Below, one piece after another: positions 1 through 17,312 of a stretch of DNA of 17,312 nucleotides; the first letter of the stretch is position 1; each line of letters starts with the position of its first letter. This DNA is from a virus (taxonomy: Duplodnaviria; Heunggongvirae; Uroviricota; Caudoviricetes): positions 1 through 17,312 of the IMG/VR virus record IMGVR_UViG_2563366888_000002; one strand, given 5' to 3'. The position numbers and the translations under genes are program-made. The notes under the pieces are model-generated. The model was not told the DNA's origin, ran no database searches, and saw only the letters and a program-made list of their open reading frames with translations.

Positions 1-93
1 GCAGAAAAAGCTTATTATGCTTCCATCGGAAACGATGATCTGGCAGCCTGAGTTCACAGATAAAACACTCTCCAGGAAACCCGGGGCGGTTCA
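1..93 (+). mobile_element. IS3-family insertion sequence, right-end fragment (last 16 codons of transposase OrfB plus terminal inverted repeat); IS629/IS1203-like
   Basis: Frame 1 of 1..51 translates [16 protein letters not shown]-stop, which I recognise as an IS3-family OrfB C-terminus. Bases 37..93 are the exact reverse complement of 17254..17312. The element ends ...CCCGGGGCGGTTCA at 93 (TG...CA-type terminus). Family assignment is from memory of IS ends, not a search. Confidence 0.7.
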
Positions 94-1223
94 CACAGCC
101 GGTGTTTATGGATCTCGCCAAAAAAGGTGTGGTAGCAGATTTGATTGGCGCAGGCGCAATCATCAGAACCGCGTTCTGCGGCCCATGCTTTGGCGCAGGC
201 GCAATCATCAGAACCGCGTTCTGCGGCCCATGCTTTGGCGCGGGCGATACGCCAATCAACAACGGTTTGAGTATTCGCCACACCACGCGTAACTTCCCGA
301 ACCGCGAAGGCTCTAAGCCAGCTAATGGGCAGATGTCAGCGGTGGCGTTGATGGACGCTCGTTCTATCGCTGCGACTGCGGCAAACGGTGGCTATTTAAC
401 CTCTGCCAGCGAACTTGATTGCTGGGACAACGTGCCGGAGTACGCCTTCGATGTAACGCCGTATAAAAACCGTGTTTATCAGGGCTTTGTGAAAGGGGCA
501 ACTCAGCAACCGCTGATTTACGGGCCGAACATTAAAGACTGGCCGGAATTGGGTGCGCTGACTGACAATATCGTCCTGAAAGTGTGCTCGAAGATCCTCG
601 ACGAAGTGACCACCACCGACGAACTGATTCCTTCCGGTGAAACCTCTTCTTATCGTTCAAATCCGATTGGTCTGGCGGAGTTTACCCTGTCTCGCCGCGA
701 TCCCGGTTATGTTAGCAGAAGTAAAGCGACTGCTGAGCTGGAAAATCAGCGTCTGGCGGGGAATGTCAGCGAGCTGACAGAGGTGTTTGCGCGCATTAAG
801 CAGATTGCTGGTCAGGAGCATATTGATCCGCTGCAAACTGAAATTGGCAGCATGGTCTATGCGGTGAAACCAGGCGATGGTTCTGCGCGTGAACAGGCGG
901 CGAGCTGCCAGCGTGTGATTGGCGGTCTGGCGAATATTGCCGAGGAGTACGCGACTAAACGCTATCGTTCTAACGTCATCAACTGGGGGATGTTACCGCT
1001 GCAAATGGCGGAAGTACCAACCTTTGAAGTGGGGGATTACATTTACATCCCTGGCATTAAAGCGGCGCTGGATAATCCGGGTACGACGTTTAAAGGTTAT
1101 GTGATCCATGAAGATGCGCCGGTAACGGAAATTACGCTCTATATGGAAAGTCTGACTGCTGAAGAGCGCGAGATTATCAAGGCGGGTAGTTTGATTAACT
1201 TCAATAAAAACCGTCAGATGTAA
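94..1223 (+). pseudogene. ybhJ: ybhJ-like aconitase-family hydratase, 3' portion only (5' end removed by the IS; carries an internal 45-bp duplication)
   Basis: Open frame continuous from 94 to TAA at 1221-1223. Translation contains the aconitase-type CGPC Fe-S ligand motif and a C-terminal swivel-domain-like segment (SAREQAA...[12 protein letters not shown]). Position upstream of ybhC and attB-lambda matches the K-12 order ybhJ-ybhC-att. The frame runs into IS sequence with an in-frame stop at 36-38. Confidence 0.7.
147..236. repeat. Perfect 45-bp direct tandem duplication (2 copies) inside ybhJ
   Basis: 147..191 and 192..236 are identical (GGCGCAGGCGCAATCATCAGAACCGCGTTCTGCGGCCCATGCTTT). 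The next bases, GGCGCGGGCG, resemble the repeat start (microhomology). In frame it duplicates [15 protein letters not shown]. Confidence 0.95.
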
Positions 1224-1238
1224 AAAGCGCCATGTGAA

Positions 1239-1347
1239 TGTAGGTCGCATTCGGCACTTATTGTCGGATGCGATGCTTGCGCATCTTATCCGACCTACAA
1301 ATCGCATCGAACCGTAGGCCGGATAAGGCGTTTACGCCGCATCCGGC
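1239..1347. repeat. REP/BIME-type extragenic palindromes (two units) between ybhJ and ybhC
   Basis: Nested palindrome TGTAGGTCG...CGACCTACA (1239..1299) and a second unit GCCGGATAAGGCGTTTACGCCGCATCCGGC (1318..1347), both matching the E. coli REP consensus pattern. Intergenic between two convergent genes. Confidence 0.75.
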
Positions 1348-1363
1348 AAATAGTTAATTGCTC

Positions 1364-2647
1364 TTACTTCTTCGCCTCTGCAACCACTTTACTACCCACG
1401 CCGCGGTTATTGTATTCCCACATGCGGTTGTAGTTAGTGTCATTCAGATTGCGCTGTATTTCGTCGTTATCATCTACGCTGCCGGTATTACCCGCAAACG
1501 GACGATTAGAGATCACCGCATCGGCCCACGGTTTAGCCGTGTTAAAACCTTCGTTGATGGCGCTATCACGGATCACCACCTGACCGTTGGTATTGGCATC
1601 AACATCCAGCGAGCGGCCCAGTTGCGCCACACCATCACCGAAAGCATTGAAACGGCTGTTTACGGCGAGGAAACCGTAGTAAATGTTGGACAGCGTAGCC
1701 GGTGCAAACACATACGCTTCTTGCTGAGTACGTGAGTTCACCACGCGGAATTCGGTGTTATCGAACACCACTGCGCCGCGACCAGAAACGATATCCACAT
1801 CCCCTTCAATGTAGCTGTTGGTCACCAGCGTACGCGGCTGACGATTCGTTTCCAGACGGTTCTGCACACCGCTGTTGGTGACAAAGAAGGTGTTCTGACG
1901 ACCGAGAATGTTAACGTTGTTAATCTGTACCTGGTCACCATCAGTACGCAGTGCCACCGCCGGATGGTTACCTGCATCTACGCTATCGCCCAGCGTGTTT
2001 TCGATGGTCAGATTTTGCAGTTGCAGGCCATTGTTTTGTGACCAGAAGACCGCAGAGCAGAGAACACCGATACTGTCGCTGCGTTTGCTCTGGCAGCTAT
2101 CGTACATATACCACGCTGGTTTACCTGGCATATATTTGCCGCGCGGGTTGACGTCGTGACGCCAGTCGGCAGGGCTCATGCCACCATCAAGGGAAAGCCC
2201 AATCTTCACATCAATCGGTTTTTCACCTGTACCGTACAGAGTAATTCCACCCGGAGCGGCAGGGACATATACCGTTCCCTGATACTCACCAGGCATCACG
2301 GCAATATACTGGCGCTTGTTGGTACGCTTGATAATTGCCGCATCTACCGCCGCCTGAATCGTGGTATGCGTTACACCTTGAGTGCCCGCCGGGCCGACAA
2401 CAAAGTCAGGTTGCGCAGGCAGGGTAATCGGGGAAGGATTCCACGCTGCAGCACCTGGTGTCAGGGATGCAAAATAGTGTTGAGCATCGAAATTCTGCGC
2501 TTCTTTTGCCGACAGAATCGGGCGAGAAGAGGTACCAGGCGCGGTTTGATCAGAAGGACGTTGATCGGGCGGGGTTGAGCTACAGGCGGTCAGCGTCACG
2601 CCAAAAGCCAATGCCAGCGCCAGACGGGAAACTGAAAATGTGTTCAC
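1364..2647 (-). CDS. ybhC: YbhC-like outer-membrane lipoprotein, pectinesterase family
   Basis: 427-aa ORF. N-terminal signal peptide with lipobox (LTAC). Sequence recognised as YbhC. Lies immediately beside the lambda attachment core. Confidence 0.85.
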   Translation of the reverse strand: MNTFSVSRLALALAFGVTLTACSSTPPDQRPSDQTAPGTSSRPILSAKEAQNFDAQHYFASLTPGAAAWNPSPITLPAQPDFVVGPAGTQGVTHTTIQAAVDAAIIKRTNKRQYIAVMPGEYQGTVYVPAAPGGITLYGTGEKPIDVKIGLSLDGGMSPADWRHDVNPRGKYMPGKPAWYMYDSCQSKRSDSIGVLCSAVFWSQNNGLQLQNLTIENTLGDSVDAGNHPAVALRTDGDQVQINNVNILGRQNTFFVTNSGVQNRLETNRQPRTLVTNSYIEGDVDIVSGRGAVVFDNTEFRVVNSRTQQEAYVFAPATLSNIYYGFLAVNSRFNAFGDGVAQLGRSLDVDANTNGQVVIRDSAINEGFNTAKPWADAVISNRPFAGNTGSVDDNDEIQRNLNDTNYNRMWEYNNRGVGSKVVAEAKK

Positions 2648-16018: not shown

Positions 16019-16470
16019 ACCTCCCACAAGATGGCATCAAATTGCATCGCGGTAACTTCACCGCTATCGGTCAGCAGATCCAGCCTTATCTGGAAGACGG
16101 CAAATGCTTTCGCATGGTGCTTAAACCGTGGCGAGAGAGACGCAGTCTTTCCCAGAATGCACTCAGCCACATGTGGTACAGCGAAATCAGTGAATACCTC
16201 ATCAGCAGGGGGAAATCGTTCGCTACCGCAGCATGGGTAAAAGATGCTCTCAAACACACATACCTCGGTTATGAAACCAAGGACCTGGTTGATGTCGTAA
16301 CCGGCGAAATCACTACTATCCAGTCGTTACGCCATACCTCCGATCTTGATACCGGAGAGATGTATGTCTTCCTGTGTAAGGTTGAAGCCTGGGCGATGAA
16401 TATTGGCTGCCACCTGACTATTCCGCAGAGCTGCGAGTTCCAGCTGCTGCGCGACAAGCAGGAGGCGTAA
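16015..16470 (+). CDS. ybcN: YbcN-like protein (NinB-family; DLP12 YbcN is described as a DNA base-flipping protein)
   Basis: 151-aa ORF with GTG start. Translation recognised as near-identical to K-12 DLP12 YbcN ([19 protein letters not shown]...). Contains the [12 protein letters not shown] motif. Confidence 0.85.
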
Positions 16471-16640
16471 TGGCTACACCGCTTATTCGTGTCATGAACG
16501 GACACATCTACAAAGTACCAAATCGTCGTAAGCGTAAACCTGAGCTGAAGCCATCCGAAATACCAACACTGCTCGGATATACCGCTAGCCTGGTTGATAA
16601 AAAATGGTTGCGACTGGCAGCAAGGAGGAATCATGGCTGA
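16470..16640 (+). CDS. ninE: NinE
   Basis: 56-aa ORF ([56 protein letters not shown]) recognised as NinE. Start overlaps the ybcN stop. Under 60 aa, so absent from the track. Confidence 0.8.
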   Translation: MATPLIRVMNGHIYKVPNRRKRKPELKPSEIPTLLGYTASLVDKKWLRLAARRNHG

Positions 16641-16923
16641 TTTGAGAAAAGCAGCGCGTGGTCGGGAATGCCAGGTAAGAATCCCTGGCGTATGTAATGG
16701 CAACCCTGAAACGTCTGTACTGGCACATATCCGGCTGACTGGATTGTGCGGCACCGGTACGAAACCGCCAGACCTGATTGCCACCATTGCATGTTCTGCC
16801 TGCCACGACGAAATCGACCGCCGCACGCATTTTGTTGACGCTGGATATGCAAAAGAATGCGCGCTGGAAGGTATGGCGAGAACGCAGGTTATCTGGCTGA
16901 AAGAGGGGGTAATTAAGGCGTGA
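16633..16923 (+). CDS. ybcO: YbcO-like DUF1364 protein (Cys-rich, putative nuclease)
   Basis: 96 aa from MADLRK...; recognised as YbcO-like. Overlaps ninE stop. Multiple Cys (CQVRIPGVC...CSACHDE). The track ORF starts at an upstream ATG (16594). Confidence 0.8.
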
Positions 16924-17253
16924 ATACTTACCACATCACACTACCCTGGCCGCCGAGCAATAACCGCTACTACCGCCATAATCGAGGGCGCACGCACATC
17001 AGCGCAGAAGGGCAGGCATACCGCGATAACGTCGCCCGAATCATTAAAGGCTCAATGCTGGATATCGGTCTGGCTATGCCTGTGAAAATCCGCATTGAGT
17101 GCCACATGCCGGATCGCCGTCGCCGTGACCTGGATAATCTACAAAAAGCCTCTTTTGACGCACTCACCAAAGCAGGTTTCTGGCTGGATGATGCTCAGGT
17201 CGTTGATTACCGCGTTGTGAAGATGCCTGTTACCAAAGGTGGGAGGCTGGAAC
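16920..17253 (+). pseudogene. rusA: rusA (Holliday-junction resolvase), 3'-truncated by IS insertion after about 111 codons
   Basis: GTG start preceded by GAGGGGG. Translation [26 protein letters not shown]...[14 protein letters not shown] matches RusA, then reads into the IS inverted repeat instead of the native C-terminus. Confidence 0.8.
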
Positions 17254-17312
17254 TGAACCGCCCCGGGTTTCCTGGAGAGTGTTTTATCTGTGAACTCAGG
17301 CTGCCAGATCAT
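17254..17312 (-). mobile_element. IS3-family insertion sequence end (same element type as at 1..93, opposite orientation, truncated by window edge)
   Basis: Starts TGAACCGCCCCGGG...; 17254..17312 is the exact reverse complement of 37..95. Interrupts rusA. Confidence 0.7.

What the first reader, a model, noticed from the sequence alone, without database searches (positions are those of the whole stretch)
1..17312. Window bounded by inverted copies of the same IS3-family element, truncating ybhJ and rusA
Seen in sequence: 37..95 is the exact reverse complement of 17254..17312. The left copy carries the transposase C-terminus ([16 protein letters not shown]-stop) and ends at 93 inside ybhJ; the right copy begins at 17254 inside rusA. 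Inference: either two independent insertions of an active IS (IS629-like elements are prolific in some pathogenic E. coli), or a rearrangement (inversion or composite-transposon-like unit) mediated by the two copies. Alternatively the window is a draft-assembly contig that breaks at IS repeats, in which case linkage beyond the ends is unknown. Either way the prophage right arm beyond rusA is not contiguous here, so the prophage may be defective.
Basis: seen in the sequence. Interest (0 to 1): 0.55.

Follow-up and report, generated by a model that had tools for sequence, protein, structure and literature searches.

The report
Draft contig ending in IS629 copies
The window is one contig of a gapped draft E. 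coli genome that stops on both sides inside copies of the common insertion sequence IS629, one inserted in the gene ybhJ and one at the end of the prophage gene rusA; this is ordinary.

Summary
The terminal inverted repeat is real but lies at 35-93 versus 17254-17312 (59 nt, 100%), not at 37-95. Both arms are the right end (IRR side, transposase C-terminus) of a 1310-bp IS3-family element, IS629/IS1203 type. It is 100% identical to full copies in closely related complete genomes.

The window is exactly one contig of scaffold KE136920.1 (GCA_000408145.1). Runs of 1305 and 1295 N abut window positions 1 and 17312, so the ends are short-read assembly breaks in a multicopy IS.

Beyond the gaps the scaffold runs in the same order and orientation as IS-free relatives.
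- **Left copy:** the 5' part of ybhJ ends ...CATCAC|IRL and the window starts IRR|CACAGCC. This is a simple insertion with a 3-bp duplication (CAC).
- **Right copy:** there is no duplication (AAC versus GAG), and 165-171 bp are missing, namely the last 8 codons of rusA and all of ylcG. This is an insertion plus an adjacent deletion.

Q, the lysis genes, terminase and portal follow. I found no inversion, no composite transposon and no lost prophage arm. Interest is low.

The parts
1..93 (+). Right end (IRR side) of an IS629-type IS3-family element. OrfB C-terminal codons are 1-48, the stop is 49-51 and the terminal inverted repeat ends at 93. The copy is cut at position 1 by the contig end.
   Evidence: 100% identical to the last 93 bases of the 1310-bp IS in M15. 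An N-run of 1305 precedes position 1 in the source scaffold.
94..96 (+). Right-hand copy of the 3-bp target-site duplication CAC of the ybhJ insertion.
   Evidence: The source scaffold left of the gap ends ...CCCGTCATCAC|TGAACCGCC (IRL). Intact ybhJ has a single CAC.
94..1223 (+). 3' fragment of ybhJ (aconitase-family hydratase), from codon 394 to the stop. It carries a 45-bp in-frame tandem duplication at 145-234.
   Evidence: Translation and alignment to the intact 753-aa YbhJ of relatives; Pfam Aconitase and Aconitase_C.
1364..2647 (-). ybhC, the last chromosomal gene before the lambda attachment site.
   Evidence: Annotated in the collinear complete genomes.
2694..2708 (+). Lambda att core GCTTTTTTATACTAA (attL), the left boundary of the lambdoid prophage.
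   Evidence: Single exact match, none expected by chance. It lies between ybhC and int. That this is the att core sequence is from general knowledge of lambda.
2782..16923 (.). Prophage left arm and early region: int, xis, exo, bet, gam, kil, S24 repressor, cro-like gene, O, P, shortened ren, a TagO-like gene, ybcN, ninE and ybcO.
   Evidence: 99.9% collinear with annotated prophages of M15, DLI.6n and SY033.
16920..17253 (+). rusA truncated after codon 112 of 120. The reading frame runs on into the IS.
   Evidence: Translation, Pfam RusA, alignment to intact rusA.
17254..17312 (-). Right end (IRR side) of a second, inverted IS629-type copy, cut at 17312 by the contig end. Bases 17254-17256 (TGA) also match intact rusA.
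   Evidence: 100% identical to the IS end. An N-run of 1295 follows in the source scaffold, then 176 bp of the IRL end and the region upstream of quuD.

Best explanation
The window is a complete short-read contig of a gapped draft E. coli assembly (scaffold KE136920.1 of GCA_000408145.1). It ends on both sides inside copies of a multicopy 1310-bp IS629-type IS3-family element that the assembler could not resolve. Both copies are real and face each other with their IRR ends inward. The left copy is a plain copy-out-paste-in insertion into ybhJ between codons 393 and 394, with a 3-bp target duplication (CAC). The right copy sits between rusA codon 112 and a point 80 bp upstream of the Q antiterminator gene quuD. 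It has no target duplication and replaces 165-171 bp (the rusA 3' end and all of ylcG). It is therefore an insertion followed by an IS-adjacent deletion, or less likely the survivor of recombination between two nearby direct copies. The 17.2-kb segment between the copies has not moved or inverted in the scaffold. Shown: the contig identity, the four junction sequences, and the order and orientation in the scaffold. Inferred: one IS copy per gap, and the order of events at rusA.
For: Window 1-11223 equals L006 9894-21116, and window 6920-17312 equals L009 1-10393, with N-runs directly outside both ends. On the outer sides of the gaps lie 123 bp and 176 bp of the IRL end of the same IS, 100% identical. 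The gap estimates of 1305 and 1295 N compare with 1094 and 1075 missing IS bases. The overestimate is almost the same on both sides (211 and 220), which fits one IS per gap. At rusA the flanks are AAC and GAG, and 171 bp of the intact relatives are absent. Seven full-length reference copies at six distinct sites in relatives (one site shared by M15 and SY033) all have 3-4 bp duplications: TGG, GGGA, ATT, GGG, GGG, AAC. The outer flanks are collinear with the IS-free relatives M15 and SY033. The IS is multicopy in this lineage: the junction probe, half of it IS end and half ybhJ, found 19 places in DLI.6n, about 18 of them IS right ends, and copies sit at varying sites in the same prophage. An independent MEGAHIT assembly (ERZ27278331, k141_1942, 17531 bp) has the same ybhJ junction, and by arithmetic 139 bp of IS at each end. 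Published work reports IS629 making 3-4 bp duplications, only 21 of 47 O157 copies with matching duplications, and 62% of copies in prophages (PMC3271280).
Against: The bodies of both IS copies are N-runs, so 'one intact IS per gap' rests on gap-size estimates. The four junction sequences would be the same after an IS-IS inversion, so the collinear orientation rests only on the assembler's scaffolding, whose data I cannot inspect. No complete genome among 5426 has either exact junction, so no finished reference confirms the arrangement. The order of events at rusA cannot be derived from the sequence.
Confidence: 0.9

Rival explanations
1. The 17.2-kb segment has been, or in part of the population is, inverted by homologous recombination between the two inverted 1.3-kb IS copies. 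That would separate attL/int and the early region from the late genes.
For: Two identical inverted repeats 17 kb apart are a substrate for RecA-dependent inversion. The four junction sequences seen are compatible with either orientation.
Against: The scaffold places the contig in the same orientation as the IS-free relatives on both sides. The scaffolder made the joins with sized gaps, so the linking information was unambiguous enough to place the contig.
Confidence: 0.05
2. The two IS copies and the DNA between them form a composite transposon that moved as a unit.
For: Two copies of the same IS in inverted orientation flank a segment.
Against: Both outer flanks are the natural neighbours of the inner sequence: ybhJ 5' joins ybhJ 3', and rusA joins the region upstream of quuD, as in relatives without these IS copies. 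The segment is therefore in its ancestral place. The outer ends would be two IRLs, and there is no common duplication around the unit (CAC on the left, GAG on the right).
Confidence: 0.01
3. The right-hand copy is the product of homologous recombination between two direct IS629 copies, one in rusA (duplication AAC) and one just upstream of quuD (duplication GAG). The recombination deleted the interval and one copy.
For: The rusA-ylcG-quuD interval is hit repeatedly and always in the same orientation in other genomes: DAM, LD22-1, O157 7.1_Anguil, 118UI and B20123, the last only 3 bp from the quuD-side junction seen here. Mismatched flanks are what such recombination leaves.
Against: It needs two insertions within 171 bp in one lineage. 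No genome with either presumed precursor junction was found. It leaves the 3-bp TGA/TCA overlaps at both edges to chance, about 1/4096.
Confidence: 0.25
4. The terminal matches are assembly artefacts, for example chimeric contig ends, and there is no IS at these sites.
For: The IS bodies are unsequenced N-runs.
Against: The complementary IRL junctions exist on the neighbouring contigs, with a matching 3-bp duplication at ybhJ. The same ybhJ junction occurs in two other assemblies made with other software.
Confidence: 0.01

Closest known systems
IS629 / IS1203 / IS3411 (IS3 family; the IS51-group placement is from my own knowledge)
   Same: Length 1310 bp; termini TGAACC...GGTTCA; orfA (HTH_Tnp_1) and orfB (rve, DDE) overlapping in the -1 frame; ALIL frameshift pseudoknot; 3-4 bp duplications; strong presence in prophages. 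A 795-bp partial copy that is 100% identical is annotated as IS629 by RefSeq.
   Different: About 96% identical to the O157:H7 and LD22-1 copies that RefSeq labels IS1203. I could not compare it with the ISfinder reference sequences.
IS629-associated small deletions and copies without duplications in E. coli O157 (Ooka 2009 and Kusumoto 2011, as cited in PMC3271280 and bioRxiv 10.1101/2023.06.07.543989)
   Same: The IS is retained, the flanking duplication is missing, and a short stretch of neighbouring DNA is lost, in a lambdoid prophage.
   Different: Whether the IS-excision enhancer (IEE) is present in this strain is unknown. Here the deleted stretch begins and ends with the same trinucleotides as the IS.
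Contig breaks at multicopy IS elements in short-read assemblies (the problem addressed by ISMapper, PMC4558774)
   Same: The contig ends a few tens of bases inside the IS ends, with the same IS end at both contig ends.
   Different: Nothing. This is the standard picture.

Membership tests
IS3 family, IS629/IS1203 type | Size about 1.3 kb with imperfect terminal inverted repeats ending 5'-TG...CA-3' | tested here: met
   The full copy in M15 is 1310 bp, TGAACC...GGTTCA, with the first 14 of 14 terminal bases complementary. Window 1-93 and 17254-17312 are identical to its right end.
IS3 family, IS629/IS1203 type | Two overlapping ORFs (orfA with a helix-turn-helix, orfB with an rve/DDE catalytic core) joined by -1 programmed frameshifting | tested here: met
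   orfA is 108 aa (HTH_Tnp_1, 7e-13). orfB is 296 aa (rve, 8e-28). The ORFs overlap at ATGA. RefSeq annotates a programmed frameshift. Only the last 16 codons of orfB lie in the window.
IS3 family, IS629/IS1203 type | ALIL frameshift-stimulating pseudoknot (Rfam RF01497) | tested here: met
   120.2 bits against a gathering score of 50, full model, on the M15 copy. This part is not inside the window.
IS3 family, IS629/IS1203 type | 3-4 bp target-site duplication on insertion | tested here: met
   The ybhJ copy has CAC on both sides. Seven reference copies have 3-4 bp duplications. The rusA copy has AAC versus GAG, so the feature is not met there; I explain that by the adjacent deletion.
IS3 family, IS629/IS1203 type | Both window ends belong to the same IS type and to full-length copies | tested here: inconclusive
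   The same IS type is shown at all four ends (93, 59, 123 and 176 bp, all 100%). The bodies are N-runs, so full length is inferred only from the gap sizes.
Composite transposon | The IS-bounded unit sits at a new locus, flanked by one common target duplication | tested here: not met
   The outer flanks are the ancestral neighbours, and the outer flanking triplets differ, CAC versus GAG.
IS-mediated inversion | Outer flanks exchanged relative to IS-free relatives | tested here: not met
   The scaffold is collinear with M15 and SY033 on both sides. This rests on the assembler's scaffolding and was not verified independently.

The most novel reading that the evidence does not exclude
The right-hand IS629 copy did not arrive by canonical paste-in followed by an unrelated deletion. 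Instead it replaced, in one aberrant event, a 171-bp target stretch that begins with TGA and ends with TCA, the IS's own terminal trinucleotides. The event could be pseudo-end-directed strand transfer or microhomology-mediated joining of an excised IS copy. The rusA-ylcG-Q interval would also be a true orientation-specific hotspot for this IS.
Probability: 0.08. Interest if true: 0.3.

Novelty: already known. Interest (0 to 1): 0.1.

Why it matters
It matters mainly as a caution. The 'bounded by inverted IS copies' picture comes from where a short-read assembler stopped, and the apparent loss of the prophage right arm is not real. Biologically it records two lineage-specific IS629 events: inactivation of ybhJ, and truncation of rusA with loss of ylcG. 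This kind of IS-driven microdiversity is already well described for E. coli prophages. The only mildly useful leads are the repeated, same-orientation IS629/IS1203 insertions between rusA and Q in unrelated strains, and the 3-bp end overlaps at the copy that lacks a duplication.

Tried and rejected
- **Exact junctions in complete genomes:** I searched both junctions against 5426 complete E. coli genomes and found none. I then looked up strain-specific proteins, the YbhJ 3' fragment carrying the 15-aa duplication and the RusA-IS fusion, and these located the source scaffold.
- **BLAST extension at the left junction:** BLAST extended window 91-93 into ybhJ, suggesting a 3-bp overlap at the left junction. 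The alignment showed this was a gapped artefact, and the boundary is exactly 93|94.
- **Inversion and composite transposon:** I considered both and rejected them on scaffold collinearity.
- **Duplication as assembly artefact:** I considered that the 45-bp duplication in ybhJ might be an assembly artefact. I rejected this because it is present in three assemblies and in the complete genome N1454.
- **Searches not run:**
  - I did not run a synthetic 'IS-less deletion' junction search. Two-piece hits from every intact genome would swamp the listing. Mismatched flanks already exclude a simple insertion into a pre-deleted allele.
  - I did not try to name the strain.
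Full report
**Observation.** The window contains one long inverted repeat: 35-93 against 17254-17312, 59 nt, 100% complementary. Window 1-51 reads [16 protein letters not shown]-stop. The IS terminus TGAACCGCCCCGGG occurs only at 80-93 (-) and 17254-17267 (+).

**What the repeat is.** Close relatives among complete genomes (M15, DLI.6n, SY033; 99.9% identical over window 94-17256) carry full copies of a 1310-bp element whose last 93 bases equal window 1-93. 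The element has these features:
- Termini TGAACC...GGTTCA.
- A 108-aa orfA (HTH_Tnp_1) overlapping a 296-aa orfB (rve).
- The ALIL frameshift pseudoknot (RF01497, 120 bits).
- 3-4 bp target duplications at seven reference copies at six distinct sites, one of them shared by M15 and SY033.

It is 96% identical to copies that RefSeq labels IS1203 in O157:H7, and 100% identical to a partial copy labelled IS629. It is widespread: 4264 of 5426 complete genomes have a match. It is also multicopy in the close relatives. The junction probe, half IS end and half ybhJ, found 19 places in DLI.6n, about 18 of them IS right ends.

**What lies between the arms.**
- 94-1223: the 3' part of ybhJ, from codon 394 of 753.
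- 1364-2647: ybhC.
- 2694-2708: the lambda att core (attL).
- From 2782: a lambdoid prophage with int, xis, exo, bet, gam, kil, repressor, O, P, a shortened ren, ybcN, ninE and ybcO.
- 16920-17253: rusA, truncated after codon 112 of 120.

In the relatives ybhJ and rusA are intact, and their IS copies sit elsewhere in the same prophage. The IS is therefore active in this lineage.

**Where the window comes from.** No complete genome has either junction. Looking up the strain-specific YbhJ fragment and the RusA-IS fusion protein found scaffold KE136920.1 of GCA_000408145.1. The window is 100% identical to the stretch of that scaffold between a run of 1305 N, which ends just before window base 1, and a run of 1295 N, which starts just after base 17312. 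The window is thus one contig, and its ends are assembly breaks inside an unresolved repeat.

**Left junction.** Left of the first gap the scaffold reads ybhJ 5' ...CCCGTCATCAC|TGAACCGCCCCGGGAATCC... That is 123 bp of the IRL end, 100% identical to the IS. The window gives ...GGTTCA|CACAGCC. Intact ybhJ has a single CAC here, so this is a simple insertion with a 3-bp duplication.

**Right junction.** Right of the second gap the scaffold reads 176 bp of the IRL end in reverse, then GAGATAACAATC..., which lies 80 bp upstream of quuD. The two flanks of this copy are AAC and GAG, so there is no duplication. Compared with intact relatives, 165-171 bp are missing: the last eight rusA codons and the whole 46-codon ylcG. 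This copy is therefore an insertion with an adjacent deletion, or the survivor of recombination between two nearby direct copies.

Published data say that IS629 makes 3-4 bp duplications, but that only 21 of 47 O157 copies still have matching ones (PMC3271280). IS629-linked deletions have also been discussed in terms of 'sloppy' strand transfer and the IS-excision enhancer (bioRxiv 10.1101/2023.06.07.543989).

**Gap contents.** The gap estimates exceed the missing IS bases (1094 and 1075) by nearly the same amount, 211 and 220. That fits one IS copy in each gap. This step is inferred, not shown.

**Rearrangement.** On both outer sides the scaffold is collinear with the IS-free relatives. To the left lie modBC, ybhA, pgl, ybhD, ybhH, ybhI and the 5' part of ybhJ. 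To the right lie quuD, porin, holin, lysozyme, Rz, bor/iss, ylcI, Nu1, terminase, W and portal. A composite transposon is excluded because the segment is in its ancestral place. An inversion is not seen. I note, however, that recombination inside the IS would leave all four junction sequences unchanged, so the orientation rests on the assembler's scaffolding.

**Prophage integrity.** The prophage may still be impaired by the 1.3-kb IS lying antisense between the nin region and Q. That is an inference and was not tested.

**Independent support.** The same YbhJ fragment, and so the same ybhJ junction, occurs in GCA_000326925.1 and in a MEGAHIT contig of ERZ27278331 (17531 bp). The length of that contig equals the inner segment plus 139 bp of IS at each end.

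**Left unexplained.**
- The 171 bp replaced at rusA begin with TGA and end with TCA, the same trinucleotides as the IS termini, so both junctions are ambiguous by 3 bp. The chance is about 1/64 per junction.
- Six distinct IS629/IS1203 insertion sites in rusA, ylcG or upstream of Q in unrelated genomes all have the transposase antisense to rusA.

**Verdict.** This is an ordinary draft-assembly contig bounded by two real copies of a well-known IS. One copy is a simple insertion and the other an insertion with a small deletion. I found no inversion, no composite transposon and no missing prophage arm. Novelty: already known. Interest: low.

Noticed in passing
window 145-234: A 45-bp in-frame tandem duplication in ybhJ adds 15 aa ([15 protein letters not shown]), including the CGPC cysteine motif of the aconitase-family Fe-S site. 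It is absent from the closest relatives. It is present in three assemblies that carry the ybhJ IS, and in the complete genome N1454, where ybhJ is otherwise intact (768 aa). It is therefore real and independent of the IS.
   Followed up: partly
window 17254-17256 and L009 11862-11864 (compare L001 24526-24696): The 171 bp that the right-hand IS replaces start with TGA and end with TCA, the same trinucleotides as the IS termini, so both junctions are ambiguous by 3 bp. This could be chance (about 1/64 each) or a trace of a microhomology-directed or pseudo-end-directed event.
   Followed up: partly
rusA / ylcG / quuD-upstream: L003 3041-4350, L004 3122-4431, L012 2566-3875, L013 701-2010, L011 2255-3049; window 17254: Six different IS629/IS1203 insertion sites lie within a few hundred bases of rusA-ylcG-Q in unrelated E. 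coli genomes, all with the transposase antisense to rusA. This may be a regional hotspot or selection on orientation.
   Followed up: partly
window 1247-1348: The REP/BIME-like array between ybhJ and ybhC has one 93-bp unit fewer than every relative, including the two other assemblies with the same ybhJ IS. This is either a collapsed repeat in this assembly or a recent repeat-unit deletion.
   Followed up: partly
window 12883-12999: Four iteron-like copies of TTACCCGAATCAGGTAA, with an overlapping palindrome, lie inside the O-type replication gene (12442-13461). This is probably the prophage origin of replication.
   Followed up: no
window 14156-14329 and about 4350-4630: ren is reduced to a 57-aa ORF, annotated as frameshifted with an internal stop in relatives. 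A holE/theta-like gene is annotated as a pseudogene in relatives. Both are signs of prophage decay unrelated to the IS copies.
   Followed up: no
window 14476-14970: A 164-aa ORF annotated as a type VI secretion-associated TagO/VasI-like protein sits in the nin region of the prophage as an apparent cargo gene.
   Followed up: no
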